Positions 2,385-60,849 of a stretch of DNA of 64,000 nt are shown here, one piece after another. Under the pieces are notes generated by a model. The model was given only the letters and a program-made list of their open reading frames with translations, was not told the DNA's origin and ran no database searches. The stretch is from an uncultured virus (IMG/VR IMGVR_UViG_3300033998_000157). Taxonomy: Duplodnaviria > Heunggongvirae > Uroviricota > Caudoviricetes. Location of the stretch: the IMG/VR virus record IMGVR_UViG_3300033998_000157, one strand, 5' to 3'. The position numbers were made by a program, and so were the translations under genes. Each line of letters starts with the position of its first letter. Within the stretch, counting starts at the first letter, position 1.

Positions 2385-2395
2385 GGTGATTGTAT

Positions 2396-9274: not shown

Positions 9275-9283
9275 TTGTTAATT
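9275..9283 (+). promoter_or_regulatory. TTGTTAATT candidate late-promoter motif
   Basis: Intergenic, starts 30 nt before GTG 9305; recurs upstream of several other gene starts. Confidence 0.5.
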
Positions 9284-9304
9284 TACTTTCAGGAGGTGCG
9301 ACAA

Positions 9305-17822: not shown

Positions 17823-18986
17823 ATGGGGTTTTATGAATTAAAAAATAGGTTGCAGACTTTAGATCCTAAATTTGGGTAGATAAAACATAATACTATTTTA
17901 GGAGAATTGCTTCAATAGATTGGATAGGAAATAGATCAAATAAAATCTGTATCAGAAAACATAAATAATTACGATGTCATAAACTAGTCAGGAAATTAGT
18001 TAGATGATATAGCTTAGCTATTTAATATAAAACGTCAATTATTTTCTGTATATGATAATAACTTAATAATTTCGAATGCTGTACTAATTCAACCAAAAGA
18101 TCCTTCTTACTCAATAATAAATGTATTACAAGAAGTATATGGAACACAGGATAAATTTCCAGATATACTATATGTATCAGATGGTAACACTACATTAAAA
18201 GTTATTTAGAATTTTTCTAACTAGGAAGGGTTAGGAGTTTATACAATTATTTTACCAGCACAGGTTGAAACTTATTCTAATCAACCGTTGCTTGCTAATA
18301 CAGAATTAACGATCGTGATAAACAACGAACAATTAAATAATTATTTTAACGTAAAATCATTAAGGACAATTAATGAATTGTATGGAATAGAAAGCGATGA
18401 AAACCTAAGAGCTAGGATATAGACATAGTTACAAAGCTATCAAGGACCCACAAAATAGTGGTTAGAATCTCAAATTTATTCTAATGTAAGTGGAATAAGA
18501 AAAGTATTGATTAAAAATTTAAGCAGAGGATTATAGACAGCAGATATAGTTTTATTTCCTACTATTTCAAACATTTATGATGAAAATATGGATTTAATTT
18601 CTGATATAAATACATAGAATTAGGCAAAAGAATCTGTTCAAAATTATTTACCATTAGGTACAGATATCCTATTTAAAGATGCAATACAAAGACAATTTAC
18701 TGTAGAAATAACTATTTCTGGTATTAATACAGACGATCAACAAACAGTTCAAAATCTTGTGAAAAATACTATAATCGATTACTTTAATAATAAAGATGTC
18801 GGCGAAAGCTATACATTAACAAATACAGAAATTCAATCAGAAATTTCAAAACAAATTATATTAAACGGATATGTAGGGATAATACAACAATTTGTATTAA
18901 AAGAAAACGGTTCTTCTATTACTTCCGCAAACATCAACGACGATGAATACCCAGTGCTTTTTTCTGTAGTTGTAACATTTAATTAA
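17823..18986 (+). CDS. Baseplate J-like protein (387 aa)
   Basis: T*SGN*LDDIA*LFNIKR and ESDENLRARI motifs are typical of baseplate J/gp47; includes track ORF 18759-18986 (TAA). Confidence 0.8.
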
Positions 18987-31758: not shown

Positions 31759-34700
31759 ATGGGAGTAAAAGATCGACTCACCCTTATTGATTTAACCGAT
31801 ACCATTAATGAGTTGCAGGTATCTCTTAATTATGATAAAGACACAATAATATATGACGCAACTGAAGGAACATATGATGTTTCTTCTATTAGTATTTCAT
31901 AGCAAGTATGGAGAAATGGTGCGGATGTTACAAGCGAAACTAATAATCTTACTTTTAAATGGTATAAAAATGATACTCTTGATTAGAGTTAGACCACATA
32001 GACATATTCGATATAGCCAGCAGATTTTTCTACTAATACTTTGAAAATCAAAATTGAAGTAACAGACGCAAAAACTAATAAAACATAGACTGCATTATAG
32101 ACCTTCAATTTATTGGAAATCATTATAGACCCAGAAATAGAATTAAGTCAGAACAACGTAGTATTTCACGAATTAGATGCCAATTCAATTACTGTAACTG
32201 GTTCTTTGAAATATAAAAATGCTGAGGTTTCTGGATAGACATATAAATGGATTGTAGATGGTGTAGAAACAAATGGAAATTCTATATCAATTAGTAAAGA
32301 TGACGTTGGCAAAGAAATAGTATTTCAAGCCGAACATAATGGCAATACATATACAAAAAAGCTTTCAATCGAACTAATACCTTAGGTAAGACAATATTAT
32401 ATTACATTATCTAAAAACACTGTAGCATATAACCCTAATGATGGAAAATTTGACGGACAAACTTCTGTGACAATAACCGCAACAGCTTTTGAAATAATTG
32501 GAAATCAAGCACCAGTTCAAAAAGCAGTATATTGGCAAATAGGAAATGGAACTAAAGATACAACAGCTTCATAGACAAAAGATATCACAGTAAGCTCAGC
32601 TAATAATATTACTGTAAAAGCTTATTTAAATTCTGATGATACAACACCTTTTGATACTGCAACTATCACTGTATTAAGTTCTTAGAGCGAAAGTTATACA
32701 TTAGTATTAGACAATGAATCATAGGTAGTATAGGCTGACGCATCTGGCAATGTATCTGATTTCACACCCGCAACACACAAAATTACTCTATTCAGAGGTT
32801 CTACAAAAATTACAACTGCTAATAAAATAAAAGTTATTGAAATTTCTGGTGGTACATTTAAAAAAGGAACCACCACATTAACTACTTCATCAACTTTAAC
32901 ATCTGACGATACAATAACGGTTTCTTAGATGTCAAGCGATGTTTAGTACATTAAATATCAGTTTGCAGATGATTAGAATATTGTAAAAACATTTGTTGTA
33001 GCTAAATCTAAGCAGGGTATAAAAGGAGATAAGGGTGATAAAGGAGATAAGGGAGATCCAGGACAAGATTAGGTAGTAAAATATTAGAAATAGTCCTCAA
33101 ATGTATTTAAGTACAATCCTAATAATGGAACATATTCTCCTAATGCAATCACAATAAGCGGTTATTCAAAAACTGGATCTAACAATCCAGTGCCTTTAAC
33201 AATTACAGTAAAAAACGGCACAACAACAATCGGCACTGGAACAGATGTGCAAATTAATATTGGGAGTGGGACGAATAATATAACTGATACAACAACATTT
33301 GATATATATGATGGTTAGACGAAAATAGACGAAATTACTCTAACTAAATTAGAAGAAGGTAAAGATACATATAGCATTATTTTAACTAATGAAAGTGTAA
33401 CATTATAGGCTGATTAGAACGGAAATGTATCCGATTATTCACCAGCAACAACACAAATTAAAATATTCAAAGGCACAATTGATGATACATCTAATTGGAC
33501 ATTATCAAGATAGAATGGAACTGGAGTAACTTCAAATTTAAACGGTAATACATTAAGCGTCACATAGCTAACCGTTGATTCATCCTACGTAGATATCACA
33601 GCGACAAAAGATTCCACAACACTTACAAAGAGATTTACAATTTCTAAATCGAAACAGGGTATTAAAGGTGACAAAGGAGACAAAGGTGATAAGGGAGACA
33701 AAGGTGATTAGGCAATAGTATATTTCATCACAGCAGATAAACAACAAGTTGTATATAACCCTAATGATGGCAAATTCGATGGACAAACTTCTGTAAATGT
33801 TACTGTTACAGCTTTTCAAGTAGTTGGTAATAATGCACCAACAACAAAATAGGTATATTGGCAAATCGATAATGGTTAGAAATCAGGTTCAGCAACAACA
33901 TCCACTACTGTAACAGTAAATCAAAACAAAAATTATGTAGTTAAGGCATATTTAAATTCAGGAGACACTACACCTATAGATACAATTACAATTTCTGTAT
34001 TATCAACTTAGAGCGAAACATATCAAATTTTGCTTGATAATGAAACAGCTTCTTTGTCATAGTCAGACACAGGTACTGTTTCAAACTTCTCTCCAGCAAC
34101 TCACACAATCAAGCTCTATCGTGGATAGACAGAAATTACTGATGCAAACACAATTGAAGTAACTAATATATCAAACGGAACATTCAAAGTAGGTACTACA
34201 ACATTAAGTGTCGGTTCTAAATTAAAATCTGGCGATACAATTACAATGTCTTAGATCTCTTAGGACAATTAGAGCATTACATATAAGTATGTAAATGATT
34301 AGAATGTTAAAAAGACATTTAATGTTTCAAGAGTAAAACAAGGTTAGCAAGGATAGCCAGGTATAAGTTAGTATAACGCATAGATTTTTGAATGGTCTGG
34401 TACTCTAAGTTTTCCTGTAAATGTTTAGGATTGGAATTAGTAGTAGAGTGCATAGACAAAATGGACTTTTGATTAGGTAAATCCTATCACACCTGTTATT
34501 GAAATATGGATTAAAGCATAGGATCCAGAAGGTGGAGTTAAAGTAGGTTTGAACGGAGTCGAATTAGGAACAATGAATATTGCAAGTTATGGATTGCCAG
34601 ACAACTCAATTGCTTGGTTTAAATTTTATGCAGATCAAACTGTTTTTAAAACTGACCAACAAAACGAATTAAGAGTATGGTCAACCACAGCTGATGGTGG

Positions 34701-37065
34701 TTCTGTTTTAGAAGTGAAAATTTATCCAACAGGAGTTAAAGGAGAACAAGGTAATCAAGGTGAATAGGCTTACACATATTTCATAGTAGCTGATAAAAAT
34801 GCAATAACATATGATCCAAATAATAATACTTTTTCTTAGACTTCTGTAACATTTACTGGTAAAAAACAAAGAGGAAGCGAAGCTTATGTTACATCTAATT
34901 CTTATTATTGGAAAGCATTCAAATAGAGCAATTTAACAACTCCTATATAGGAAAAAGTAGATTAGAAAGCAACAACATTTACAGTAAGCGGAATAAATAA
35001 TATTAAAGAAGACATTATTGTTAAAGCAAGCACACATAATGGTTCTAATTTTGATACATATATAGTAGATACAGTAACCATACCTTTTATAGTCAATGCA
35101 GAAAATTCATTTACAATTGTAGCTGATAATGATAATGTAAGTTTCTCTTAGCTCAATGACGGAACTGTAAATGATTACAGCCAAGGTGGCGGAACAATTT
35201 ATCTATATCAAGGTTCTCAACCTATTAGTGGAAAAACAATTACAGTAACAACTGAAAATATCTCTTGTTCATTAGGTTCTTCTTTTACATCAAGTGCAAG
35301 TGGAACAACATATACCGTAGATAACATGACATAGGATAATGCAAAAATTACTTTAGAATATAAAGAAGGCTCGACAGTAAAATAGAAAAAGGTTTTAACT
35401 TTTACAAAAGTAAAAAGAGGTCAATCGCTTTTCATAGTATATCATGACAACGATGTATTTAATACTCCACCAAAACCGACTGGCGATGGTACAAATGATG
35501 GTTGGCATTAGAACGCAACTCCTACATCAAATTGGATGAGTACAAAAGTGGCTGATGATATAACATTAGGTACATGGAGTGATCCTATACGAATAAAACC
35601 GATTGAATTTTCACAAGAAAAGAAAGTCGAATAGCCAACAATAGTAAAACTCATATAGAAAAATGGTAATACTCTTACTCTTGATAATACACAAACAACA
35701 ATAAGATAGACTGTTTGGAGAGAAGAACAAGAAATTAATTAGAATGACACAAATGGCGGAAGCAATAATATATGTAATTATAAATGGTATTTTGATGGAG
35801 TTGAAAAAACAGAATATGAGGATAATCCTGAAATAACAATTACAAGAGATGATATTACAAAACAAGTAAAAATAGAGTGTGAATAGAAAGAAAAAACTAA
35901 GGTTTATTATTAGAAAGGTAAATTTATATATTAGGATAAAACAGAAGATTATGGATTAGTTACAAGAAATGATGGAACATTGATTGCTACTATAAGAGAA
36001 GACGATGTGCCTATTGATGAAATGGAAAGTATATAGGTAGAGGAATAGACAACCAATTTAATTTCCAATTTTGATATTACTACTTGGTTTAAAAGTAGTT
36101 ACAGTAAAACATAGGTCAAAATACAAAATGATGGAATTTTCAATCAAAATTAGTATAAACTTGAATCAAATGGAACTGGATGGGATCCATTTTGGAGTAT
36201 TTCAATAGAAACAGGTTAGCCTCTATAGAACAGAACATTTACATTTTCTTAGTATGTAAGAAGCGATAAACCTGAAACTTAGAAATTTTAGATGTATTTA
36301 TATAACGCAAGTACAACTGATGTTAAAGCCAAAACTTATAGTATTTCAAAAGAGTGGCGTAAATACGAACTTACATACACGTTTAAAAGCACTACAACAG
36401 ATACAAGTTTTAACTAGCGTTTTGATATAGGCGAAGGCACAGCAAATACAGACGTGTTTCCTGTTGGCGAGCATGTTTACGTATGCTGTTATCAAGTAGA
36501 AGAAAAAAGTTTTTAGACTTCATTTATAAAAGGAACGAGACAATCAGGAATCATTCAATTAAATAACGCAATTAACTCAGAAGATTTAGTAATAAGTTTA
36601 TATGCTAAATATCAAATGCCATTAGATTATGATATAAGTGTTGAAAAATTATTATTTTTTATAAATTCTAATTTGTCTGGTAGCTGGAATGCCGGAGCTT
36701 TCCGTTTTTACGCAGATAATACAAACCCGCGAATAGTTAACCTAGATTATTGGGATTCTACAAATACATATAAAAATGCAGTTGGAATTAATGGAAATCC
36801 TTTGTATCAATTAGATAACAACTGGCATCATTATGTTGTAATTTTTGATAAATCAAACAAAGGCGAAATAAGATATTATGTAGATGGTACATTATATGGA
36901 AAAACCGCTGGATACGACGTATTAGGTGTAGGATTACCTATGTTTTTTCTTGGGAACGGCAATTGGCTTACATCAAATCTTTATATAGATACATACGACA
37001 CAAACAAATGGACAGATGACTTCATCAAATACATCTACGAAAACAAAATTAAATTAGAATATTGA
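31759..37065 (+). CDS. Long tail fibre with Ig-like repeats, collagen-like linkers and a C-terminal LamG-like domain (~1768 aa)
   Basis: GDK/GXY runs (~33015-33065, ~33655-33710); internally duplicated blocks; WHHYVVIFD...YVDG; joins track ORFs 34549 and 36616. Confidence 0.8.
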
Positions 37066-37134: not shown

Positions 37135-40100
37135 TTGAGCCGAGATAGCATTGTCATTTATGATATATCTGATTCAATGTCTGATTTGACTGTTGCTTTG
37201 AATTTCAATCCAGATGATTCGTTTAAATATGATTAGGTTTTAAACGCAACAACCCCAAATCAAATAACTATAACATAGGTTGTGTATTGGAACGGTTCTT
37301 CTGTAACTCCTGATGGAAGCGGAAACCAACAAGGAGATTATGGATATAATTGGTATATTGATGATAATTTACAAACAGACCATTCAAATTCTTTAACTAT
37401 AAGTTCTTAGGGAAAAATAAGAGTTGAAGTATATCATAAAGGAAAAACTGCTTAGGTAACTTACGTAGTAGATCAAAAAGATATTTCAACATAGCCAACA
37501 ATAAAACTTAGTGTCCCTGCAATAGTATTTAAAGAAGGGGATACTTCTACTACTCATAATGTAACTTAGCAAGTGTTGTATAAAAACCAAGATATAACAA
37601 ATTCTGCATAGGTTACTGACAAAAAATGGTTCAAAGGAACTACACAAGTCGCGACTGGAAACTCAATAACAATTAATCACACGTATATTAATTCAGATGT
37701 TAAATTCCAATGTAAAGTAAATGGTGTAGTGTATGAAGAAATTTTAAAAGTTACAGAAGCACCAAAAGGAGATCAAGGACCACAAGGACCTGCTGGACCT
37801 CAAGGACCACAAGGACCCAAAGGTGATAAAGGAGATAAAGGGGATAAAGGAGATACAGTATATTTCTTTGCAACAAAAAATTTAATTGAAATTCCAGTTA
37901 ATCAAGACGATAGTAAAGATTATAGCAATGCATATGTTGATGTAAAATACTTAGTTAATGGTACTTAGCAAAATATTAGCATATCAGTGTCAGCAACATC
38001 TGGTATAACAACATCTATTTCTAATAATGGAACATCTTCTCCACGAGTAAACATAACATCATAGAACAATAATGGTGAAATTACTATTTCATATAGTACT
38101 TATAATATAAAAATACCAGTTGCTTTAAACAAAGCAAGAAATATTGCACGAGTAGTGCAAATTGAACCTATTAATGGAACTATTATTAGATCTTATAATG
38201 ATACTCTTTCTTTTAAATCGAAACTTGTAGATCTAAATGGTTCTGTATCTTATATTTCTTAGAATTGGAAATTGTTAGATACAGACGGAAATGTACTTAA
38301 AAATTTCGGCACTGCTTAGCAAGTAACTGTAACCCCAACAGATTATACATATCATTAGGTATTAGAATAGAGTTACAATAACACAAAATCATTTATTGAT
38401 GTTTTTGATGCATATGATAATTATATTGTACAAATTACTCCTTTAAGTGGCAGTGTAGTTCAATTTAGAAAAGATGGAACTGTATTCCCGACTGATGGAA
38501 GATTAACTTTCTCTTAGAAGATATATAATGCTTCAACAACTCAATTACAAAACGCATAGAATTTTAATTATAACTGGACAGTAGAACCAGAACCAGATGG
38601 AATAAATTCTATATTATATGCTGGAACATCGCCAGATCCAGCAGAAGAAAGTTGGTTGTATATCAACGATCCAGCTTAGGATACAATTGAACTTCAAGTA
38701 TCATATGGATATAACGATACAATTACTCTCAAGTGTGAGGTTACAGATCCTGCTAATGGCAATAAATATTATTAGTCTTATCCAGTGCAAGTAGTTAGAG
38801 ACGGTGAAAGTTAGAGTTATGTAATTATAGAAAGCAATAATGGTTTTGCTTTTAAAAACGGAAAAGAACCTGCTTCTATTACATTTACTTAGAAATATTT
38901 TAGAGATAGTACAGAATTAGCATTTGAAAATCCTGCAGAAGTAGAATGGTATGTGAATAATTCGCTTAAAAGCACTGGACCTCAAGTTACTCTAACACCA
39001 TAGGATTTTCCAAATAAAGTAAATTCTCTTAAACTCAAATATAGAGAACTTAGCTATACACAAACTGTAATTGATTTAAATGAAAATATAAAAGTTGAAA
39101 TAGAAAGTTCTAATGGTAATACATTTAAGAATGGAAATATTTCTACAACACTAACTTAGAAAACTTTTGAAGGATAGGTAGAATTAACCAGCGGATTAAC
39201 ATATCAATGGTATAAAATTCAAGACGGTAGTAGAACTTAGCTATCAGGAAACACAGCACAAACATTAGCTATCAACGATTCAGATGTAAACAAACAAACA
39301 ACTTTTGAATGCGAAGTAACTTACAAAGGATAGAAATATAAAGGTTCTATAACAATTCTTGATATTACTGACGCATATTATATAAGTGTAGATGTGTCTA
39401 ACGCAGAAACAAATTATGATGGAACTATTTTTGCACCTTAGTCCGTAACTATCACTCCTTCACTCTTACAAGATAATAATGTAATAAGTACTACATTCAC
39501 AATATATAATTAGAATGGAAGCTCGTTAGGTACAGTATAGTCAGGTTCTTAGAAAACCATAAATTATACAAGTATATTCTCTGCTTCAGAAAGAAAAACA
39601 ATTAAGAATCAGAAATCTTTAATTGTTAAAACAACATATAATGGAAAAGTATATTCTCAAAATGTAGTTGTATCAATGAGTAATTCAAACTATACATGGC
39701 TTGAAAATTGGAAAAATAAAACAGAAATTACAGATGACTCTATAGCTACAGGTAAATTCTTTGCAGGTCAAAAAAGTGGTGAAAAATTAACTGGTATATA
39801 TATTGGAGATACTACAACAACAACTGGTAAAACATATGACCCTGGTATTACTTAGGTAAAAGATAATAATGAAAGATTTTCTTTAAAAGTTGGCGGAGAT
39901 AGTCATGTATATCTAAACATAGGTGACAATACAAATAATTATTTAAAATATGACACAAAAGATGGCGTACTTGAAATCAAAGGAAAAATAGAAGTAAAAG
40001 AAGGTTCTAATGTACCTACCATAAGCGAATCAGGAGTAGCCTTACCAGAAGGTGCAATTGCTTACTTTGCAAATACAATAATAGATATTCTCAATGAAAC

Positions 40101-43100
40101 AGTGCCAGAAGGTGTTGATGATAAGGCAAAATTGTCAGCTTAGGGATATGGTTTAACAGTATAGGAAAGGAATATTTAGGCTTTATACGGTCATTCAAAT
40201 GATTTTACAACAATTGATGGCGGAAAAATTTACACAGGATCCATTACATAGGATTAGTTGGATTAGACTTCTATATTTACTAAAACATTTACCCTTAAAG
40301 ATGGTGGTTAGCTTGTAACAGATGGAAAAACTGGATATAAAAGCGGTGTAGGAACCTTTTTAGATAAATCAAGCTTCGAAGTCTATAAAGATACAAATAC
40401 ATATTTTAGATTTGACACAACAAATGGAATAGATCTAAAAGCTTAGGGAGTAACATTTAATTCAAACGGATTATCTATGACAACAGGTTCTATAAATCTT
40501 GGAAACAACAAAATCAACCTTAATAATGATGGTTCTGGACAATTAGCTGGTGGGAATATTACATGGGATACAAGTGGAAATGTAACAATAATAGGTACTT
40601 TAAAAATCGATTAGAATACAACAGTAACAGCTTATGCAGATAATAAATAGTCAACAGCACAAACAAATTAGGAAACAAATATCAAAAATTTATATGGTCA
40701 TTCAACAGATAAAACTAAAATTGATGGCGGAAAAATATACACTGGCAGTATAACTTAGGATAAAATACAAACAGGAACAATCACAGTTAAGCAAATATCA
40801 AACTCTTATGTTACAAATCTATTAGACTATTCAATTTGGAAAGATTATTTAAATAATGTAAATGGAACAATTGGAGATTTTTATTTAAATGGAACAGCCG
40901 ACGAAAATAACATAACTTACGGAATAACACCGTATGGATATAAAGATTATATTTGGGAATGTATTCCTGATTCTGAAAGTGGGCCTGATGGAGGATGGAA
41001 TACTTCAAATTTACCATAGGATCCAAGAAAAAAATATAGAATTTCATATTTTGTAAAAAGAAATAAAATGGGCAACGGAAAAACTTATATAGGAACAAAT
41101 AATGATGGCACTATAGCAAGTTTATCAGGTAGCGTAAACACAAATCCATATTTCATGTATTCTTCTAATTTTGGTAGACCCGACGAATGGTATCTTGTAG
41201 TTGGTTATGTATTTCCATATGATTAGGACACTTCCGTTATAAATGAAGGTGCAATTTATGAAGTATCAACAGGTAGAAAAATAGCTTCGACAGGTGCTTT
41301 TAAATTTAAAGACGCAACTGTTGGTCATATAAAACAAAGATAGTATTTATTTTATTGTACAGATACAAGTGTAAGGCAATATTTCTATATGCCAAGAATA
41401 GATGAATGTAATGGTAATGAACCTTCAATAGATGAATTGTTATATGGTGATTTTTCTAAACCAAACAGATGGTATGCAAGAAGAATGCCAAGAGCATATA
41501 ACTCTTCTGAAATATAGAATATGGAAAAATATTGGAAAGAAGAAGAATAGATAGATTAGACATATGTACATGATTCTATAATAAATAAGCAATCTTCTGG
41601 AAATGATATATTCGGAGATGTGCATGGATATATAGGAAGATTTACAACTTATGTTTATGTAAAGCGAGATACAACTTTATCAAATTTAACATTCTATCAT
41701 GATGATCCTGGTAAAATTTTTATAAACGGAAAAGAAGTTATATATGGAAATTCATGTTGTTCTAACACAAACGTTTCTTTAACCTTCAAAAAAGGTTGGA
41801 ACAAAGTTGATATATACTATTGGGAAAATACTGGAGATCATGGGGCTGGTATTGTAGATTCTAATGGTAAAACACTTTCTCAATTAGTTGATAAAATGCA
41901 ATAGGCTCCAATGTCAGAAACTGTTATTGATGGTAATTCTATTGTAACTGGAAGTGTAAGATAGGAACATATTGATGTAAATAATTTATTTGCACAACAA
42001 ATAGAATTAAATGGTAACATTCACAGTAATGGTCATTCTAATTTTAGTGATACTGGTGCTGGTTTTTGGCTTGGAAAAGATTCAACTCAATACAAATTTG
42101 TAGTTGGAAATAGAAACGAGTAGAAATATCTTGAATTTGACGGCAACAAAACATATTAGGCAGGAGATATATTTGGGCAATTTATTGGTGATGCTTATTT
42201 ATATAATACTGAATTTAAAAAAGATCCGTAGTTCGGTTCTGAGCCAGGAGAAATCATATACGATTAGAATTTACAACAAATGTACAGATATCCAGATACT
42301 GGTTTAGAATTGTTAAAAACATTTGGTTCAAACCAACAATATATATTATAGTTACAAAACATATAGATACAACCATAGAACCAATATTAGCCTCAAACAG
42401 GTTCCAATGGCGTTTCATCATACACAACAGTAACAACAAACAATACATATACTACAATAACATCAGGTTCAGATTAGCCTTTTTATAGAGTTGCAGTTAG
42501 AGTTTATAAAACATTCCCAGCAAACTATTTTAAGGGTGAAGCAAGTGGTCAAAAAGTATATCAAACATTAATATTTGATTTTTCTGATAATGTTTTATAT
42601 GGTGCTTATACATCATCAACAAATAAAGTTGCAGTAAAATATAATTCTACAGACAGAAGCGTAACTGTGCAATTACAAAATTCTTCTGGTACTGCTATAA
42701 AAACTGTAACCAAAAAATAGAGAGCTGATATAGAAAAAATTGATTTTAGAACATTCGCATAGGTCAAAAAAACTTCTAACACAGTAGATAATGGTATGTC
42801 CTATACATTTACAACAAGAGATATGGGACATTAGTTAGTTCAAATTCAAGCTGATCCAGATGCAGCACAAGAATCTCTTTCAAAATTCAATAAAACATCA
42901 GTAACAAATAATGTATATGGTATCGTTAAGTAGAGAACATTTGATGGGGTTGCTACATAGGCTTATTTTGCTGATTTATAGGAAAAATTATGGTAGGACG
43001 ATAACTATAAATCAGGTACTCCTGTACAACTTAAAAAAGGTAAATTCACTAAAGCATACAACCCATGGAAAAAAACATGGATAGTATCAACAAATCCAGG

Positions 43101-43314
43101 AGTATTATTAGGAAAAGGTAGAAAAAATACTATCCCAATAGCATTACAAGGGACAGTAGAAATAGAAGGAGATTTTGAAATTGGAGACGAAATTTGCTTG
43201 AATTTAAAAGGAGAACTCAAAAGAGTAAGTTATCTTGATAAATTGTTGTTAAAATATATAATAGGAAGAGTGGTATATAAAGATGAAGAAAAAACATTGT
43301 TGCTAATATATTGA
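37135..43314 (+). CDS. Long tail fibre with collagen repeat, Ig-like repeats, PA14-like domain and putative C-terminal chaperone domain (~2059 aa)
   Basis: GAGGTG RBS and TTG start; GPQ/GDK run (~37765-37855); repeated [24 protein letters not shown]...[26 protein letters not shown] 43312-43314. Confidence 0.8.
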
Positions 43315-43324
43315 GGTGATATAG

Positions 43325-45388
43325 ATGTAGATTCTTTCGAATGATATAGTAACAATTTACTCATAGACAGGATTAAATGATGGCGTCCCAGCGAATACAA
43401 CTATCGCTGGGGCTAAAACTTACACATTTAATTCTGATTATGAATATTCATCTGGTGTACTTGAAATTAAGGTTAATGACGCCGAAGGTGGTATACGTGT
43501 TGGTTTTAATAATGAAGAATTAAGGGTTTTAAAAGATGATGACGTCGCAACAACAACTTATACAATTAAACTGCCTCGTATAATTAAAGGAACAAATACA
43601 ATACATATATGGTCTGTTAGCGGAGACAGATAGTCAGTAAAAGAAATATTTGTTAAAGTTGGAGTTAAATAGTAGATAGCAAGAAGTGGCAAAATAAACA
43701 GAATTATACAAAAAGTTCAATAGTTATATAATTTTTATGGAACTACAACGATTGAAGGCGTTTCAAATTTGCCTCAAATACCAAAATTGGTTGGCAAAAA
43801 AACAAAAATAGCCAAATCAAAAATAGACGAAGTTAAAAGTTTTGTTTCATCAAATTTCGGAAGCTTTACATGTCATTATGATAGCGAAACAATTATTAAT
43901 GATGAAGTTCTAAACCAAGTTTATGCAAAAATTAAAAATTATTTACCAAATTAGGGTTGTTATGTATGCGATTATTATAACACTTGCTCGTGCGATAACA
44001 CATGTAATGCATTTTCTTGTCAATGCTATATATAGAGATATGGTCACGCAACATGTTATTGTAATAATAGTTAGCATGGTTATTCTTGTTCGTGCTATAA
44101 TGTATCGTATGGAGGTACTTGTGATTGTTTTTACGCAACATATGATACATGTTATTGTCATTATGCTTGTTATCAAGATGGTGTAACAAGATGTCAATGC
44201 AACGGGACATGCGACTCAGTAACTACATGTTCTTCTGGGCTTTATTTGTGTAATTGTAATGGTGTGTGTGATACAGATAACGGGTGTTCTTGTTTCTTTG
44301 CATCAGATGGAGATACATGTAGTTGTAATTCTGGTTGTAACAGTGGTTACTCAACTTGTTCTTGTGATTACACATGTTATGGTTATTCTGTCTGTAGTTG
44401 CAATAGTAGATGCTATTTGTATTCTGGTTGTAGTTGCAATAATACGTGTCATGGTTATTCGACTTGTTCTTGTAATTATACATCTTATAATTCTCCATGT
44501 ACATGTTTTTTGTAGTGTTATGGATATTCTGATTGTAGTTGTAATAATACATGTTATTCTTACTCCAGCTGTAGTTGCGATAATAAATGTTATCGTTATT
44601 CTGGTTGTAGTTGCAATAATACGTGTCATGGTTATTCTTGTACTTGTAACGGCAGTTGTAACTCTGGTTATAGTTGCATGTGTAATGAATAGTGTTATAA
44701 TGACGATTCTTGTTTTGGATACTCTGATACAATATGTGATTGCAACGGCACGACATACACAATTGGGTGTGATTGTAACGGAAACTATATGATTGATGGT
44801 TGTTCGTGTGACGGCAGATGTTATGTTTATGACTTAACATGTGGTGGAGGAGCGTGTTATAACTATAACAAATGTTCATGCGATAATGAATGCCATGGTT
44901 TTATTTGTTCTTGTGATATTGCGTGTTACGGTTATGATCCATGCGATTGTGACATGAAAGCTTATAACTATAGTTGTTCATGCGATTATAAATGTTATTC
45001 ATTCTCATGTTAGAAATGCCATTCTGCTAATTATTCATGTAGTTCATTCACTTATAATTGTTCATGTGATACAGCATGTTATGCATATGAATATTGTCCG
45101 ACACATAACACGTGTTCAAACTATAGTGAATGTTAGTGTTATTCGATTTGCGACAATGATTAGTCTAATCAGGTTCAAACTTGTTCCAGTTATTCTGAAT
45201 GTGCATGTTATAATTTAAGTGACAGTAGTTGTTATAGCGATCATGTGTGTTCTTCAGACGGAACAAATTCTTGTCCAAACAATACTGGTTCCGATTTATG
45301 TCAAAGTTATTGTGGTACGTTTACAAGTTAGGGAAGTTCTTAGGTAACTTGTTCTATTGATGGTTTAAGTTGTACAGTAGGAGGATAA
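43325..45388 (+). CDS. Cys-rich repeat protein (687 aa): beta-rich N-domain plus ~475 aa of CxCxxxC(Y) repeats
   Basis: GAGGTGA RBS and ATG-TAG start; joins track ORFs 43769, 44246 and 44789; repeats such as CSCDYTCYGYS and CSCNNTCHGYS; TAA 45386-45388. Confidence 0.85.
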
Positions 45389-45415
45389 TATTAATAACAT
45401 AAGGAGGCGACCAAC

Positions 45416-47014
45416 GTGGATAAACCTTTTATTCTTGGTAAAAAAGGAAAAACTTTGGTTGAATTAGGAACACATACAACTAATTTGAGTATTGATTTGA
45501 CTGAAGGTTGTAGTTTAAGATGTAAATACTGTTTTGCAGATTTTTAGGCAAAGAAAAGGGAAGACAGAAAATTAACAGAAGAAGTAATGAAGGCAGCGAT
45601 AGATTGGTTGTTCGACGACGGAACTTCTGGAACTGTAGAAGAAGTTAATAGAATGGGCGGTTTGAGCTTCGAACCATGGGGAGGCGAACCGCTCCATAAT
45701 TTCGAGATGTTACAAAAAACATATGAATATTTTGTTCAAAAATCCAAAGAAACTGGTAAAAAAATAAGACACATTGGTGGAACAACAAACGGTATTGAAT
45801 TTACAGAAGAAAGATTAAAATGGATGAAAGAAAGAAATATTACATGGCTTATATCTATGGATGGAATAAAAGAAAATCATGATTCCCAAAGAGTTTTACC
45901 AAATGGAAAAGGTAGTTTCGATATTATTGATAAAAATATAGATCTATACAAAAAAGTTTATGGTTATGCACCACAATTAAGAATGTCCTTACACCCTGAT
46001 TATATTAATAATTTATATAAAAGTTATGAATATGTTCTTGGTAAAGGTATCAAATCATATTTCTTCTCACCAGTATATGAAGCAAATTGGACTGAGGAAA
46101 GTTATAAAGAATTGGAAGAACAACTTGTAAAATTGTATGAAAAATTAATAATAGATTATAAAAACGGTTTTCCAGTAATAGAAAACAAATTTGTTGATGA
46201 CATGATACATTACATTTTGGAAGCAAGAAGACTTGGTGTTAATTTAGATGAGATAGAAAAAACTGGTTCGTACGATCTAAACCTTAACTCGCTATCTAAA
46301 GGAATGCACTTGCCAAAACCTTGTGGTGCTGGTAGCACATATTTTGGAGTAAGCGTTGAAGGACAAATATTTATATGTCATAGATTTAACAAACACGGAT
46401 TGGATCCAAATAAAATTCCATTTGAAAAAAGATATGGTTGGTTAGGTAATGTTTGGGAAGGAATGCATAACATAGAATTGTTTAACGAATTAAAAAATTG
46501 GGATGTAAAAGAATTAGAACATTGTAAATACTGTAAATTAAAATATTATTGTAAAGGTTCTTGTTATGCTTCTAACTACGATAATTCTGGTGATATTAAA
46601 GGTAAAAATGATAAATCATGTAAAGTTAATTTTGCATTGTATAACGCAGCACTAAGAATAATTGATTTGTTTAAACAACATGGCATGTACGATGAACGAA
46701 ATCATCAAATTATATATCCTCAAAATAATCAATATAACAATGCAATATATATAGGAAAACATGGGCAACAATTTGATTCATGTATGTGTAACAATTCAAC
46801 ATATTATTTTGACGGATTAAATAAATTGCTTTCAGACGAAACACCTCAAACAAGAGAAGAATTAAGAATGCAAATAATCGACGCAGGCATTCACGCTTTA
46901 TTAGACACTTATAATGAAATAAGAAGGAATATGAATATTAATAATAGCAACAATGCAAAAACTCAAAACGCAAATAAAAAATTACAATTTAATGTGCATT
47001 TACCAAATGTATAA
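45416..47014 (+). CDS. Radical SAM/SPASM-domain maturase (anSME/ranthipeptide-maturase-like, 532 aa)
   Basis: AAGGAGG RBS and GTG 45416; CSLRCKYC (CxxxCxxC); WGGEPL; ISMDG; SPASM cysteines CGAG...ICHRF...CKYC...CKGSC...C; one TAG at 45545-45547. Confidence 0.93.
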
Positions 47015-47031
47015 TAAGGAGGGTCGCGACC

Positions 47032-47295
47032 ATGAATTTTGACGTCAAATTTCAAATCAACGAAGATGATTTAACACAATATATAACAGAGTTCTTGTTT
47101 GTTGATAGAAGAACTTATTACGAATATTCAATTATATTAGACAAATATTACATTTTAAGTCCTTATCCAAAAGATTCATAGATAACACTAATATTAAACG
47201 ATCAAGTAATTTTTGACAAAAACACAAATGTTGATTTTGAAATTGTTGTTAGGGAAACAGGTTCAACAGTAAGAATAAGAATTAACAAATAGTAA
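47032..47295 (+). CDS. Hypothetical protein (87 aa), last gene of the Cys-rich/radical SAM unit
   Basis: AAGGAGG RBS and ATG 47032; ends TAG-TAA just before a terminator. Confidence 0.65.
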
Positions 47296-47328
47296 AAGCT
47301 GGGTAATTAACCCAGCTTTTTGTTAATT
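47294..47328 (+). terminator. Intrinsic terminator fused to TTGTTAATT
   Basis: AAAAGCTGGGT-AATTA-ACCCAGCTTTT, continuing into TGTTAATT. Confidence 0.85.
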
Positions 47329-47361: not shown

Positions 47362-50300
47362 GTGTCTATTTTCATAAACGACTATAATGCTATTTATTCT
47401 TTATTTAGCAAAGTAGTTCCATATTAGGGGTAGAAATATTCTCAGTTGATAGAACCAGCGACAACTAATTTGATTGGTAATGGAGATCTTACTTTAGATT
47501 CAAATTAGGATAATATTCCAGATTTTTTCAACCCTGCTACTCTCACATATATAAATGATAGTGATATCTTCTCTAAAAGTTATCAGGTGCTAAATTTTGC
47601 AACACAAAAAGGGTTTTATGTAAATATCACAAACAAATCTACTCAGGTAACATCTTATTCATAGTTGCAAATATATTCAAATAATTTCAATATTTCATAG
47701 AATCAAACCTATACACTTTCATTTGAAGCATTAAATAATAATGCTACTATAATTGTTTTTGCAGAAGTATATAATAGTTCTAACACATTATTACAAAATA
47801 CGCAATTAAACTTATCAGAAGTATTATCAATGAATGATAATTCAAAAATATACGCAGGAACGTTTACAACTCCTGCCAATTCTTCTTATGTAAAATTCAA
47901 GTTTCAAATTCAAATACCTCAAAAACAAAGTGGTAATTCATTAATCAATCACATTCAATTAGAAAATAGATCTTACTGGACAACATTCTAGAGTCCTTCA
48001 AAACCAGCTGGGTTAATAATCACAGATTTAGGCGACCATGTTTCTTTAACAAACACAGGATATTTCTATATTCCACCTTCCAAAAAACAAAATTATGATG
48101 CGGTTCTCATTTCTATAGGAAAACCATTTAATAATAATAGTATTACATTATATTTTGAAAACTCATATTAGACATTAGCTCTAAAAGTAATAGATAATAC
48201 AGGATAGATATAGTATGAATATCATAATATTTCATATGATCCTTCGTGGAATTTCTTTTAGCTTGCTTATCAACAAAATGGTTCAGGCATGGATATTAAA
48301 TTATTTATCAATAGCACAAAGGTGTTAGAACACAATATTGCTTCTATTAATTGGGATTACGATAATTAGTCATTTAAAAAAGCATATATAGGACATAGTT
48401 ACTCAGGTTCTACATAGGTAAATCAATTAAATGGTTTTGTATCTGCACTTAGAGGTATAGGTGGATATTTCACTGATAGCAAAATTCTTGATATATATAA
48501 CAACCAAAAAATATATTCTTCAACAAGAAGTTTAGTAAGGTCATAGGAAGTAAACGCAACAATGCTCGGAGGTCTTTCTCCAACGGAATTTGCTACAGCT
48601 ACACATTCTCATGATGATAGATATTACGTTAAAGCCGAATAGGACGACAGGTTTGTAAATGTAACAGGAGATACAATTACAGGGTCTTTAACAATAGATG
48701 GTTCTCTTTCTGTAAAAGGTGGAATAAATACAAATAATACAGATATTACAGTTAATAATGTAAATATAGTTGATCCAGGGCCAGGCGAAGGTATTAAATG
48801 GCTCGCTGGAAACGGGTGGGCTATATATGAAAGCCCTAATGATTTAACAACAAACAGTGCTGGTAATTTACAATTTGTAAAAGGAAGTTCGAGGATACTT
48901 ACATTAGACACAAATGGAGATGCAGAATTTACAGGGAATATTATAGTGCAAAAAGACATAAAAACTGGTGCCGATACTTTTATATGGACTAATAATAGCG
49001 GAAGCGGTTATACAGGATTTTGGGATCAAAAAAATTCTAAAATTTTACTCAAAGTAACTGAAGGCGGAACAATTCAATTAGGCGATTAGAATCAAAATTA
49101 GTCCGTAAGTGTGTTAGGTTCATTAAATATCAAAACAAGTGGTAGTTCTAATTATATCAGTATTTATACAGAAACTGGAACTTAGAAAATTGCAGATACT
49201 TTTGCAGATACAACTACACATAAATCATATATATATTTCTATCAAGTGTCAGGTTCAAATGACCCTGCATATATAATGCACGAGACATCAGAAACTGCAG
49301 GTGAAGCAAACGAAGGAGTATTACATTTATGTCCTTCTGATGATAATGCATATGGAGATTATGTTTCTATACACGGAACTAATGACCCAGATGTATTAAA
49401 GCTACATACAGACGGAACTATAGAAGGAGTGAAGAGTTTAACTGCTTCTGAATTAATTAAAGGAAAAACTTTGCAATCTACAGTAGCTACAGGAACTGCT
49501 CCTTTAACAGTTTAGTCAACTACTGTAGTTACAAATTTAAATTCTGATATGTTAGATGGATTACATTCATCATAGTTTTTAAGCAGTAATACAGATAGTG
49601 AACAAACAATAGGCGGTAAAATATTTTACTTTAATAATGGCGAAATGAAAATAAACGTGGATCCAAGATGGAATTCTGATAGTGTCGGTACTAATAACGG
49701 TAATTTACATATATGGGCAACAAAAGCTGATGGAAGTACTTATGGACAAGCAGGTATAGCTTTATATAACGGTACTAATGGAAAATATCACTATATAATG
49801 GCACAATCTGGATATTGGACAAGATTTCAAAACCCTAATGGTTATATTGATATTGGACCATCAAATACATTATATGCACATATTTATACAGATAGACCTG
49901 CATTTTATTTTAATAAAGAATTGTATGTAAACAATAATATAGTATGGCATTCTGGAAATGACGGACATACAACAGACAATTCTGGGCCAGACGCAGATAT
50001 GTTAGATGGTATGCAACCTTCATCTTCAAACACTTAGAACACTATTGTTCAAAGAGATGCTTCTGGTAATTTTTCATAGGGAACAATAACTGCAACATTA
50101 AACGGTAATGCTTCTACATAGAGCAAACTCGCTACTTAGAGAACAATTAGTTTAGGCGGAGATTTGTCTGGTTCAGCAAGTTTTGATGGTTCTTAGAATA
50201 TAACAATAACCGCTGATGTAAAATACACAGTAATTACAGAAACATTAGCAAATTAGTTATAGTAGAATACAAACCATGATGTTTAGAATGCAAAATTCGA

Positions 50301-58317: not shown

Positions 58318-60849
58318 ATGGCTGAACTAAAGGCAGGCACTACCATAGGTGGATATAGGTAGTTGCACGAAGGGATTTCTAATCCTACATTAAATTCAGA
58401 TACAACAATTAATGCAAATTTAACAGTAAATGGAACAACTACTGTAAATGGTGAAATACATTTTGATGACGTTTCTCGATATTGGCTTTCAACTTAGACT
58501 AATTGGGGATTATATTGGGATACTTCAACCAATCAATTAAAATTCAGAGGTTCTGGTTAGGATAAAGTAATAATAGATTTGGACGACGGAACCACAGAAA
58601 TAAAAGGAGTTGCAAGCTTAACTTATTCATCTCAATATCCTTTAAACATTAATGGTTCTGATGACGGAAAAATTGTTTTGCAAGGATCTTCTAATCCTTA
58701 CATTAGATTTAGAGAAGGAACAACTGATAAATAGTATATTCAATGGAGTTCAGGTGGTTATTTACAATTCAGAAATCAAGAAGATGGGTCCGGATTAAGA
58801 ATTAGAGATTCAATTGATTTTACAAAAGACGGAACAACATGGTATTCTGTTTGGCATTCTGGTAACCATGGTTCAAACAGTGGTCTTGATGCTGATTTGC
58901 TTGATGGACAACATGGTTCATACTATACAAATTAGTCAAATTTAAATGCTGGCACAGTTCCTACAGCAAGACTTTCAGGAACATATAATATAAGTATTTC
59001 TGGTAATGCTTAGACATAGAGTAAATTATAGACTTAGAGAACGATTTCTTTAAGCGGAGACGTATCTGGTTCGGCAAATTTTGATGGTTCTGGAGACATA
59101 ACTATATCGACAACTGTTTAGGATAATTCTCATAATCATTAGATAAGTAATATAACATGGGCTTCGAGTCAAAATTTAAATTTAACATAGACTGAAAATA
59201 ACTTAGAGTGGTCTATAGATATGAGACCAGATAGCTATACAGGAACTTACTTTCAAATATGGTCAAGTACTAAATCCACAGTGCTAAAAGCAGAACATGA
59301 TACTGGTTATGTTACTATTCCATATAAATTGATAATAGGTTCCACAAGCACTAATCATATAGAATTATATACAGAATCTGGCACATAGCAAATAGCAGAT
59401 ACATTTGCTGATACAACAACCTATAAAAACTATATATACTTTTATCAAGTTTCAACTTCAAATGATCCCGCATATATCATGCATGAAACATCTGACAGCG
59501 AAACAAACGAAGGAGTATTACATTTATGTCCTTCTGATGATAATGCATATGGAGATTATGTTTCTATACACGGAACTAATGACCCAGATGTATTAAAGCT
59601 ACATACAGACGGAACTATAGAAGGAGTGAAGAGTTTAACTGCATCAGGAACAATTACATAGACAACTTTTACAGGTTCATTATCTGGTAATGCTTCAACT
59701 TAGAGTAAACTTGCTACTTAGAGGACAATTACATTATCAGGTGCGGTAACTGGTTCTGCAAGTTTTGATGGCTCTTAGGATATTACAATTTCTACGTCAG
59801 TTAATCACAATCACGACAGTTCTTATGTAAATGTTACTGGTGATTCAATGTCTGGAACCCTTACTGTTCCTACTCTTCAAATTAATGATAGCAATACTAA
59901 ACTTGTTGAAGGCGGTGAAAACTCCGTTAGAATACAAACAAATAGCGGATATATAGATATAGGTCCTCAAAATACATCTTGGTAGCACCTTGACACAGAT
60001 AGATCTAATTTTTATTTTGGAAAAAGCATACATGTAAATGGAAATATATATGCCTATAACACAAGTTATTATTTTAATGGAAGTTCATTTAATTTTCCTG
60101 GCGGAACTGTAAATGGAACGCAAAAAATCACAGGCGATTTGGATATGGATGAAGGAACAATTTACTATGTACGTGAAATTCGATTTGATTGGACATCAAG
60201 AAGTTATAATCAAGAATATCATTCTATTGTAAGTAAAAACGCATCTGGTACTTTATCTGATGCTATAAGAATTAATAGCTATGGTGACGTTGTAATTAAT
60301 ATAGATTCAAACAACAATGGTACTAATACATTTTCAATATATAAGCACGGAGGAACAGGTTAGATAAGTTCTTCATATAGGCTCTTCTATGTAGATGAAA
60401 GTGGTTATTAGTACGCAACTAAAGTATATGGTGCAGTATATAACGATTATTAGGAATATAGAATTGGAAAAGAAGAAATTGAGGCTGGATATATAGCTGT
60501 CACAGATAATGATGGAAAAATTAAAAAATGCGATAAAGATAGAGCAAGAAATATTGCAGGTGTAGTTTCTGATGTATTTGGTTTTGCAATTGGAGAAGTA
60601 GATGGAGAAATCAATATACCGATATAGGTTGCAGGAAGAGTGTTAATTTATTAGTAGAACAAGGAAAAATTAAAAATTGGCGATTAGGTATGTTAGACAA
60701 AAGATGGACGAGCAAGAAAAATGAAATGGTGGGAAAAAATTATTTTCCCAGAATAGATTGTTGGATATGTTGATGAAATACCAGATTACGAAGAATGGGG
60801 TAACGATAAAATCAAAGTAAATGGTAGAGTTTGGATTAGATTGAGGTGA
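58318..60849 (+). CDS. Tail fibre with putative C-terminal intramolecular chaperone (peptidase G2-like) domain (843 aa)
   Basis: MAELKAGTTIGG; VWHSGNHGSNSGLDADLLDG; two SKL(A/*)T*RTI repeats; KVYGAVYNDY*EYR...AGVVSD...PI*VAGRV; TGA 60847-60849. Confidence 0.85.
59504..59642 (+). repeat. 139-nt exact repeat, copy 2
   Basis: Identical by eye to 49307-49445. Confidence 0.85.

What the first reader, a model, noticed from the sequence alone, without database searches (positions are those of the whole stretch)
43325..47295. Giant Cys-repeat protein plus radical SAM/SPASM maturase embedded in the tail module
Seen: a 687-aa protein whose last ~475 aa are tandem 11-13-aa units, C-x-C-x-x-x-(C/S/T)-Y-G-Y-S-like (about 30 or more by eye). 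It is followed directly by an anSME/ranthipeptide-type radical SAM-SPASM enzyme, an 87-aa gene and a terminator, all between tail-fibre genes. Known: SPASM maturases (SCIFF/CteB, PapB, QhpD) install Cys-to-carbon thioether crosslinks in adjacent Cys-rich substrates that are usually short peptides. Inference: the phage post-translationally crosslinks a virion appendage, a RiPP-like chemistry on a protein-sized substrate. A metal-binding or disulfide fibre is the alternative.
Basis: partly seen in the sequence, partly recalled or inferred. Interest (0 to 1): 0.88.

Follow-up and report, generated by a model that had tools for sequence, protein, structure and literature searches.

The report
Phage fibre protein with enzyme-stapled cysteine repeats
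A phage tail-fibre gene cluster encodes a 687-residue protein carrying about 30 cysteine-rich 12-residue repeats next to a radical-SAM enzyme of the thioether cross-linking kind, a pairing kept in nearly all related phages, so the virus probably welds part of its own fibre chemically.

Summary
Gene 43325-45388 (open only if TAG is sense) gives a 687-aa protein with 100 Cys, 99 of them in the last 476 residues. It has 30 C-x-C units of mostly 11-12 aa, consensus C-[ST]-C-[ND]-N-[TS]-C-Y-G-Y-[ST]-x. It is followed by a radical SAM/SPASM enzyme (45416-47014), an 87-aa gene and a strong terminator, all between tail-fibre genes.

The enzyme is closest to the thioether-forming PapB/CteB/QhpD group. 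It falls below every family cut-off and lacks the leader-binding RRE domain.

The key prediction held. Of 19 judgeable related loci, 16 have a Cys-repeat gene directly upstream, 2 directly downstream and 1 none.

The Cys protein has a CBM-like beta-sandwich shared with tail proteins, a conserved helical pre-repeat module, then the repeats.

Best reading (0.6): the enzyme installs non-alpha thioether staples in a virion fibre protein. A 2026 paper (CrpC/CrpA) shows this chemistry on an archaeal protein; my searches found no phage case in print.

Side findings: TAG here encodes alanine, not glutamine. Some relatives also read TAA as alanine, use TGA as the only stop and almost lack GC dinucleotides.

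The parts
43325..45388 (+). Cys-repeat fibre-module protein, 687 aa (alternative GTG start 43316 gives 690 aa); 17 in-frame TAG codons
   Evidence: relatives P0102-P0107, alignment A2
43331..43672 (+). N-terminal beta-sandwich domain (residues 6-119 in 690-numbering), CBM35/CBM6-like fold, shared with phage tail proteins
   Evidence: AF2 pLDDT about 80. VIA-align Z 8-10 to CBM35/CBM6/CBM36 modules. phrog_23593 'tail protein' 8.8e-15. 40% identity to Alteromonas phage 'tail protein Pb4'. E 2e-5 to residues 916-1002 of the window's fibre 31759-37065
43673..43957 (+). Helical pre-repeat module (residues 120-214; helices 124-144, 167-181, 196-207), ending in the first C-Y-x-C; candidate leader-like recognition element
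   Evidence: AF2. Conserved in all 12 aligned family members, including those that lack the N-terminal domain (L014, L001, L020)
43958..45385 (+). Cys-repeat region: 99 Cys, 30 C-x-C units of period about 12, irregular Cys-rich C-terminal end
   Evidence: DNA-level repeat only 66% matching. AF2 pLDDT below 40
45416..47014 (+). Radical SAM/SPASM enzyme, 532 aa, no RRE domain
45509..45532 (+). CX3CX2C radical-SAM cluster motif (C32, C36, C39)
   Evidence: invariant in 21 of 21 aligned sequences
45545..45547 (+). The enzyme's only TAG codon (codon 44). The public table-11 gene call therefore starts at 45587 and lacks the cluster motif
   Evidence: (P0004, 475 aa)
46322..46621 (+). SPASM domain with seven Cys (C303, C321, C370, C373, C379, C383, C402)
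46781..46789 (+). Invariant C456-x-C458 (C-M-C-N-N-S-T-Y-Y) in the enzyme's C-terminal extension; it resembles one substrate repeat
47032..47295 (+). Conserved 87-aa all-beta protein, third member of the cassette
47294..47320 (+). Intrinsic terminator, 11-bp stem and T run
37135..43314 (+). Upstream 2059-aa collagen-motif tail fibre; its stop overlaps the Shine-Dalgarno site of the Cys gene
   Evidence: its C-terminus is homologous to the gene before the Cys gene in L003
47362..50439 (+). Downstream 1025-aa tail fibre
   Evidence: homologous to the gene after the cassette in L004

Best explanation
This is a three-gene late cassette inside the tail-fibre module. It holds a modular fibre-type protein, a radical SAM/SPASM enzyme that modifies it, and a small beta protein.

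Shown:
- The enzyme has the SAM-cluster motif and a complete two-cluster SPASM domain.
- Its nearest characterised relatives all join Cys sulfur to a side-chain carbon (PapB, CteB, QhpD).
- It travels with Cys-repeat genes across relatives from 31% to 80% identity, under three different readings of the stop codons and in both gene orders.
- The substrate candidate carries a tail-protein domain and sits between fibre genes.

Inferred:
- After late translation the enzyme docks on the conserved helical pre-repeat module. It has no RRE, so recognition is protein-protein, as partly seen for CrpC/CrpA.
- It then works along the 11-12-residue repeats. A repeat Cys binds the open iron of auxiliary cluster I. 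5'-deoxyadenosyl radical abstracts a hydrogen from a nearby side chain, and a non-alpha thioether (ranthionine) ring closes.
- The best acceptor candidates are Asn/Asp at repeat positions 4-5, which gives an [N/D]-x-x-C motif like NxxcA.
- One to three such staples per repeat would turn the C-terminal 476 residues into a covalently braced rod or solenoid. Such a structure needs no disulfides and resists reduction and proteolysis. It would be carried on the virion through the N-terminal part or partner fibres.

The 87-aa protein is a conserved partner of unknown role. It may be an adapter or a small structural piece, and it is not RRE-like.
For: Enzyme family: PF04055 and TIGR04085 are above their cut-offs. 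The best NCBIfam hits are PapB 2.1e-56, nif11 maturase, SCIFF maturase, CcpM and QhpD. The best solved structure is CteB 5wgg at 1.6e-47. Read from the alignment, 4 of 6 CteB 'catalytic-site proximity' residues (list from PMC10288494) are identical (F40, T123, S147, H322), plus F to W88 and Q to R323.

Pairing: of 21 loci with an enzyme at 35% identity or more, 19 can be judged. 16 have a C-x-C tract directly upstream on the same strand, 2 have one directly downstream, and 1 has none. A 31%-identical relative on a contig of a Spirochaetia MAG also has one downstream. With the same filter, only 10 of 57 loci with distant enzymes show any tract anywhere in the locus.

Tail context: conserved synteny fibre / Cys gene(s) / enzyme / 86-aa gene(s) / fibre in L003 and L004, and a collagen-like fibre upstream in L014. 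The N-terminal domain matches tail proteins.

Repeat design: position 4 is N/D in 70 of 80 twelve-residue units and position 7 is Cys in 73 of 80. [ND]..C occurs 28 times against 16.0 in shuffles, and 2 of 2000 shuffles reach 28. DNA repeats are only 66% matching while the protein motif is kept.

Precedent: CrpC installs ranthionine links on the 28.8-kDa repeat protein CrpA (PMC13692751, sections 8, 12-14 read). NxxcA has a Cys-Asn link, freyrasin has Cys-Asp links, and QhpD acts on a protein (PMC8326336, passages).
Against: There are no experimental data.

Every specific family model is below its cut-off: PapB 191.6 of 340, SCIFF 143.2 of 425, QhpD 125.8 of 453, TIGR04463 81.7 of 525. Similarity among SPASM enzymes does not fix the chemistry.

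The enzyme lacks the RRE that CteB and CrpC have, so how it recognises its substrate is unknown.

AlphaFold gives no confident fold for the repeats (pLDDT below 40).

Co-variation of N/D at position 4 with Cys at position 7 is weak (odds ratio 2.5, p 0.02, on 168 units that are not independent).

Presence of the protein in virions is not shown.

One related locus (L021) shows no Cys gene in the 1590 nt upstream; its downstream side is cut at 323 nt.
Confidence: 0.6

Rival explanations
1. The enzyme does modify the Cys-repeat protein, but with a different chemistry. Options are alpha-carbon thioethers (sactionine), C-C or C-O links to the conserved Tyr/His at repeat positions 8 and 10, or oxidation of Cys or Ser.
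For: SPASM enzymes with similar sequences do all of these. The list of weaker NCBIfam hits includes sactisynthases (RumMC 1.2e-19), cyclophane formers (YhhB 4.4e-12, FxsB 1.7e-9) and anSME (1.2e-16). The repeats keep aromatic residues: Y at position 10 in 53 of 80 units and Y at position 8 in 38 of 80.
Against: The strongest hits by far are non-alpha thioether formers. The closest structure is CteB, with 4 of 6 pocket residues identical. The sulfatase motif that anSME recognises was not seen in the repeats by eye (recalled motif, no search).
Confidence: 0.2
2. The repeat array is a multi-core precursor. The modified 12-residue units are cut out and released as many small cyclic peptides (a phage-made RiPP), not kept as a fibre.
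For: The layout of tandem near-identical cores after a leader-like module resembles multi-core RiPP precursors (recalled knowledge, not tested here).
Against: No protease or exporter is in the cassette. No conserved cleavage site is seen between units; position 12 is variable. The N-terminal domain is shared with tail proteins, and the gene lies between fibre genes in the window and in L003, L004 and L014. The irregular Cys-rich C-terminal end is conserved among the four full-length relatives P0102-P0105.
Confidence: 0.07
3. The cysteines are structural through metal binding or disulfides, and the neighbouring enzyme acts on some other target.
For: C-x-C repeats can bind metals. CrpA is itself suspected to bind metal (PMC13692751, discussion). 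The chemistry here is untested.
Against: The adjacency holds in 18 of 19 judgeable loci, across 35-80% enzyme identity, both gene orders and three readings of the stop codons. That is hard to explain without a functional link. A radical SAM enzyme implies an anoxic, reducing host cytoplasm, where disulfides would not form (inference).
Confidence: 0.08

Closest known systems
CrpC/CrpA of Methanococcus voltae (TIGR04463 family; Dieter et al. 2026, PMC13692751; sections 8, 12, 13, 14 read)
   Same: A SPASM radical SAM enzyme acts on a whole protein. That protein has an N-terminal recognition part and a C-terminal array of Cys repeats. Ranthionine links are shown by MS. Substrate engagement is partly domain-to-domain. 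AlphaFold gives only a low-confidence beta-helix for the repeats.
   Different: CrpC/CrpA is archaeal and cellular, with unknown function. It has 17-residue repeats x10 with C-x-x-Q/D, and CrpC has an RRE. Here the setting is a phage tail module, the repeats are 11-12 residues x30 with C-x-C-[ND]-x-x-C, and there is no RRE. The enzyme scores only 81.7 bits on TIGR04463 (cut-off 525). The paper's text has no 'phage' or 'tail'.
PapB/PapA (freyrasin) ranthipeptide system, NCBIfam NF047865
   Same: It is the best-scoring family (2.1e-56 over residues 22-395). The substrate has repeated Cys motifs, each closed by a Cys-to-Asp beta-carbon thioether (PMC8326336, passages).
   Different: The score of 191.6 is below the cut-off of 340. 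Freyrasin is a short peptide with six links. The spacing of Cys and acidic/amide residues differs.
CteB/CteA (SCIFF, thermocellin), PDB 5wgg/5why
   Same: It is the closest solved structure (1.6e-47). It has the same SAM and SPASM motifs, and 4 of 6 pocket residues are identical.
   Different: CteB has an N-terminal RRE of about 90 residues that binds the leader. The phage enzyme aligns only from CteB residue 93 on, and its own cluster motif starts at residue 32.
QhpD/QhpC of quinohemoprotein amine dehydrogenase (TIGR03906)
   Same: The radical SAM enzyme makes several Cys-Asp/Glu thioethers inside a protein subunit, not a peptide (PMC8326336, passage).
   Different: QhpC is small and an enzyme subunit. 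The score of 125.8 is below the cut-off of 453.
NxxcB/NxxcA of Streptococcus orisratti
   Same: An Asn-x-x-Cys motif is closed by a beta-carbon thioether (PMC8326336). The phage repeat contains [N/D]4-x-x-C7.
   Different: NxxcA has a single link in a short peptide. NxxcB was not among the NCBIfam hits listed, so the resemblance lies in the substrate motif only.

Membership tests
Radical SAM superfamily (PF04055) | CX3CX2C motif for the SAM-binding [4Fe-4S] cluster; Pfam score at or above the gathering cut-off | tested here: met
   46.8 bits against 29.5. C32, C36 and C39 are invariant in 21 of 21 sequences.
SPASM domain (TIGR04085) | Seven-Cys motif C-x9-15-G-x4-C ... C-x2-C-x5-C-x3-C ... C; score at or above the cut-off | tested here: met
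   44.6 bits against 27. C303, G316, C321, C370, C373, C383 and C402 are invariant; C379 is present in 90% or more.
PapB family ranthipeptide maturase (NF047865) | Whole-protein score at or above the curated cut-off of 340 | tested here: not met
   191.6 bits. It is the best hit but not a member.
SCIFF maturase (TIGR03974) / CteB | Score at or above 425, and an N-terminal RRE leader-binding domain | tested here: not met
   143.2 bits. The match starts at model position 97 and at CteB residue 93. Only 31 residues precede the cluster motif.
TIGR04463 (CrpC family) | Score at or above 525 | tested here: not met
   81.7 bits.
Anaerobic sulfatase maturase (TIGR03942) | Score at or above 349 | tested here: not met
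   60.8 bits.
Ranthipeptide (RiPP class) | Thioether from Cys sulfur to a non-alpha carbon | not testable with these tools
   Needs MS or NMR on modified protein.
Ranthipeptide (RiPP class) | Short precursor peptide with a leader that is bound by an RRE and removed | tested here: not met
   The substrate candidate is 687 aa. There is no RRE in the enzyme. The 87-aa neighbour is all-beta in the model and not a winged helix. No protease is in the cassette.
Phage tail fibre / tail protein | Homology to known tail proteins and position in the tail module | tested here: met
   phrog_23593 at 8.8e-15 on residues 22-116. 40% identity to an annotated tail protein. Fibre genes lie on both sides.
Phage tail fibre / tail protein | Presence in the virion | not testable with these tools
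   Needs virion proteomics or cryo-EM.

The most novel reading that the evidence does not exclude
The phage builds a fibre segment whose every 12-residue turn is closed by one to three radical-SAM-made thioether bridges. That would mean 30 to 90 bridges per chain. It would be the first enzymatically cross-braced virion appendage and the most densely cross-linked ribosomal product known. In anoxic, reducing habitats these bridges would replace the disulfides of known cysteine-ladder solenoids. They would be made by an RRE-less enzyme that recognises a folded helical module in place of a leader peptide.
Probability: 0.4. Interest if true: 0.9.

Novelty: new variant of a known kind. Interest (0 to 1): 0.8.

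Why it matters
Covalent chemistry known from peptide antibiotics would here serve virus architecture. It would explain how a phage of anaerobes can build a rigid, reduction-proof receptor-binding appendage.

It would extend radical-SAM thioether formation from peptides and one archaeal protein to a 687-residue, 30-repeat substrate. It would also offer an RRE-independent recognition mode.

The system is directly testable: two genes, co-expression and mass spectrometry. A regular, enzyme-stapled repeat scaffold may interest protein engineers.

For annotation, the public gene call of the enzyme is truncated by the TAG codon and lacks its catalytic motif. TAG must be read as alanine before the genes are synthesised.

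Tried and rejected
The tool does not admit proteins read with a recoded TAG.
- No whole genome is held for the window.
- Idea that the 87-aa protein is a stand-alone RRE: not supported. The model is all-beta with 7 strands at pLDDT 63. Its weak fold matches (Z at most 5.9) are all to tail-tube, baseplate-hub or Hcp folds, too weak to name a fold.
- AlphaFold on the whole Cys protein (12-row alignment) gave no usable model of the repeats. A beta-solenoid like the 12-residue disulfide-laddered insect antifreeze proteins is my recollection only and is untested.
- Pfam and NCBIfam find nothing in the Cys protein or the 87-aa protein.
- The annotated phage collection holds no close relative of the enzyme (best 29% identity) and none of the repeat region. 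The viral-contig scan with the single protein found no locus.
- The window's baseplate wedge protein has no tblastn match in the phage collection, so the phage clade is not named.
- No tRNA was found in the window.
- I first read TAG as glutamine. Searches used that reading, which puts Q instead of A at 17 of 690, 1 of 532 and 2 of 87 residues. This was rejected.
- The inference of the TAA residue was confounded, because database sequences carry Q at TAG. I redid it with codon-verified references.
Full report
**What is in the sequence**

Under the standard bacterial code the region 43.3-47.3 kb holds only short ORFs. With TAG read as a sense codon the whole 64-kb window resolves into long, tightly packed genes.

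The flagged genes are:
- A 687-aa protein from ATG 43325, with GAGGTGA 6 nt upstream overlapping the stop of the preceding fibre gene. A GTG at 43316 would give 690 aa.
- A 532-aa enzyme from GTG 45416, preceded by AAGGAGG.
- An 87-aa gene from ATG 47032.
- An 11-bp-stem terminator at 47294-47320.

The genes on both sides match tail-fibre PHROGs, and a baseplate wedge gene lies at 17823-18986.

**The repeat is real and far beyond chance**

The protein has 100 Cys, 99 of them in the last 476 residues, and never two adjacent. It has 30 C-x-C starts, and 20 of the 30 units are 11 or 12 residues long.

C.C...C occurs 20 times against a mean of 4.1 in 2000 shuffles of the same residues, and none reaches 20. 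Cys autocorrelation peaks at 2, 6, 12, 23-24 and 35.

The other 27 ORFs of the window together have 60 Cys in 19,857 codons. Two giant proteins of 2294 and 2521 aa have 0 and 1.

At DNA level the array is diverged: period 36, 7.5 copies, 66% matches. So the motif is kept at protein level.

Over 11 family members, the consensus of 80 twelve-residue units is C-[ST]-C-[ND]-N-[TS]-C-[YNDH]-G-Y-[ST]-x. Position 4 is N/D in 70 of 80 and position 7 is Cys in 73 of 80.

**The enzyme**

It passes Pfam Radical_SAM and the SPASM model TIGR04085. In an alignment of 21 relatives the CX3CX2C motif and the seven SPASM cysteines are conserved.

The best family models are all makers of Cys thioethers: PapB 2.1e-56, nif11 maturase, SCIFF maturase, CcpM and QhpD. 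Each is far below its curated cut-off, so the enzyme is a member of none.

The closest solved structure is CteB (1.6e-47). The alignment begins at CteB residue 93, so the leader-binding RRE of CteB is missing. Only 31 residues precede the cluster motif.

Six pocket residues were defined on CteB (PMC10288494, passages). Reading them off the alignment gives F40, W88, T123, S147, H322 and R323 against F, F, T, S, H and Q. I did not compare this profile with those of sactisynthases.

**The decisive test: do relatives keep the pair?**

Scans with the enzyme alignment returned 1 viral, 77 metagenomic and 5 genomic loci. Twenty-one of them encode an enzyme at 35% identity or more.

Two of the 21 (L006, L019) have no upstream sequence to judge. 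Of the other 19:
- 16 have a C-x-C tract directly upstream on the same strand.
- 2 (L001, L020, both standard code) have one directly downstream.
- 1 (L021) shows none, but its downstream side ends after 323 nt.

A 31%-identical relative on a contig of a Spirochaetia MAG (L080) also has one downstream. L079 cannot be judged.

With the same filter, 10 of 57 loci with distant enzymes show a tract anywhere in the locus.

The order fibre / Cys gene(s) / enzyme / 86-aa gene(s) / fibre is conserved in L003 and L004. L014 has a collagen-like fibre directly upstream. Repeat numbers range from 5 to 43 C-x-C units per gene, and some loci split the array into two genes.

**Architecture of the substrate candidate**

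Relatives of 398-720 aa exist. The alignment and an AlphaFold model give three parts.

1. Residues 6-119 form a confident beta-sandwich. It resembles carbohydrate-binding modules CBM35/6/36 (Z 8-10, rmsd 2.4-3.1 over about 100 residues). It is homologous to annotated tail proteins and to an internal segment of the window's own fibre (E 2e-5).
2. Residues 120-214 are three helices. This module is the only part before the repeats that is kept in every family member, including the short proteins of L014, L001 and L020 that lack the beta-sandwich. I therefore propose it as the recognition element.
3. The repeats have pLDDT below 40 and no reliable fold.

**How it most likely works**

By analogy with the characterised relatives (PMC8326336, passages; PMC13692751, sections 8, 12-14), a repeat Cys would bind auxiliary cluster I. 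The adenosyl radical would abstract a side-chain hydrogen, and a non-alpha thioether would form.

The repeat offers [N/D]4-x-x-C7, the motif that NxxcB closes in NxxcA. [ND]..C is enriched: 28 against 16.0 in shuffles, and 2 of 2000 reach 28. N/D at positions 4 or 5 co-varies weakly with Cys at position 7 (odds ratios 2.5 and 2.8, on units that are not independent).

All of this is inference. Which residues are joined, how many, and whether the product sits in the virion are not shown.

**Comparison with what is known**

Thioethers on whole proteins are known for QhpC and, since September 2026, for CrpA of a methanogen.

Full-text searches on radical SAM/SPASM with phage tail fibre, ranthipeptide with bacteriophage, and phage/thioether/tail/cysteine-rich/radical SAM found no description of such a phage system. 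Subscription journals are not covered by that library.

Earlier notes of this scan report like cassettes in other phages. None shares close sequence with this enzyme. Those notes are leads, not evidence.

I rate this a new variant of a known kind.

**The third gene**

The 87-aa protein has homologues after the enzyme in L003, L004 (two copies) and L008. Its model is all-beta (pLDDT 63). Weak matches (Z at most 5.9) all go to tail-tube, baseplate-hub or Hcp folds. It is not RRE-like, and its role is open.

**Side finding 1: TAG is alanine**

- In codon-level comparisons of the window with L002, L003, L004, L010 and L014, the residue opposite a TAG is Ala 41 times and Gln 4 times. In the 72%-identical enzyme pair, 10 of 12 TAGs in L003 face Ala codons.
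- In the conserved fibre motif of genes 47362 and 58318, TAG positions correspond to A, S, G, T, K or V in three standard-code phages, never Q. The first position is Ala in 3 of 3.
- L079 (enzyme 69% identical) carries a tRNA with anticodon CUA. It has G3:U70, A73 and an Ala-like D arm. That G3:U70 is the alanine identity mark is recalled knowledge.
- The window has 653 TAG, 675 GCN and 661 CAA/CAG codons. The enzyme gene uses TAG once against 17 GCN.

**Side finding 2: relatives read TAA as alanine too**

- Ten loci (L005-L009, L011, L012, L015, L017, L018) have 15-33 in-frame TAA, 0-4 TAG, no TGA and no GCN codon in the enzyme frame.
- L008 gives coherent genes only with TAA and TAG as sense. 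These include a gp23-type major head protein (2.4e-42) and a baseplate hub.
- Columns rich in TAA/TAG hold only Ala in sense-coded homologues.
- In the head protein, columns where three cyanophage homologues all have Ala most often hold TAA/TAG (7 columns). All-Gln columns never do.
- These loci almost lack the GC dinucleotide: observed/expected 0.00-0.17, L003 0.16, the window 1.05.
- Searches for TAA or TAG-to-Ala recoding in phages found nothing in print.

Noticed in passing
whole window (653 in-frame TAG codons); e.g. 50101-50115 and 58999-59013: TAG encodes alanine, not the glutamine assumed for recoded phages. Opposite TAG, close relatives have Ala 41 times and Gln 4 times. In a conserved fibre motif, TAG aligns with A/S/G/T/K/V in standard-code phages, never Q. 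TAG and GCN are used about equally (653 and 675).
   Followed up: yes
L005-L009, L011, L012, L015, L017, L018 (whole loci); L008:4010-5506 (-) major head protein: A lineage of tailed phages related to the window reads TAA (and TAG) as a sense codon, most likely alanine, with TGA as the only stop. It has no GCN codons in 5 of 6 L008 genes and almost no GC dinucleotides (o/e 0.00-0.17). This suggests that avoidance of the GC step drove alanine onto stop codons. No tRNA was found on these short contigs. My searches found no paper on it.
   Followed up: partly
L079:2206-2280: There is an amber-suppressor tRNA (anticodon CUA) with G3:U70, A73 and an alanine-type D arm, about 1 kb downstream of a 69%-identical enzyme gene.
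   Followed up: yes
window 45416-47014, TAG at 45545-45547: The enzyme gene almost avoids TAG: 1 TAG against 17 GCN, while neighbouring genes use TAG for about half of their alanines. L002 and L013 have 0 TAG in the enzyme but 7-9 in the repeat tract of the Cys gene. The single TAG lies just after the cluster motif, so the public table-11 gene call (475 aa, P0004) lacks the motif. This could be a timing gate or a trace of recent transfer.
   Followed up: no
window 46781-46807 (enzyme residues 456-464): An invariant C-x-C followed by N-N-x-x-Y in the enzyme's C-terminal extension looks like one substrate repeat. Distant members (P0026-P0028) have a second copy. It could be a pseudo-substrate, a self-modification site or an extra metal ligand.
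   Followed up: no
L021:2428-2756: The enzyme gene of L021 seems interrupted right at the conserved SPASM Cys-His by an intein-like insert. Sub-threshold Pfam hits: Intein_splicing 3.4e-4, PT-HINT, Hint_2. The contig ends inside it.
   Followed up: partly
L003:7616-9912; L004:803-2587 and 4182-4734: In L003 and L004 the Cys-repeat array is split into two consecutive genes. L004 has two paralogous copies of the small 86-93-aa gene.
   Followed up: no
L016:873-2334: The enzyme frame of L016 is lost after about residue 230, with many TAA and TGA codons in the continued frame. This is an apparent frameshift in that contig.
   Followed up: no
window 2390-16840: Two giant proteins (2294 and 2521 aa) have no family match and 0 and 1 cysteine. 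The window's proteome is strongly Cys-poor apart from the cassette.
   Followed up: no
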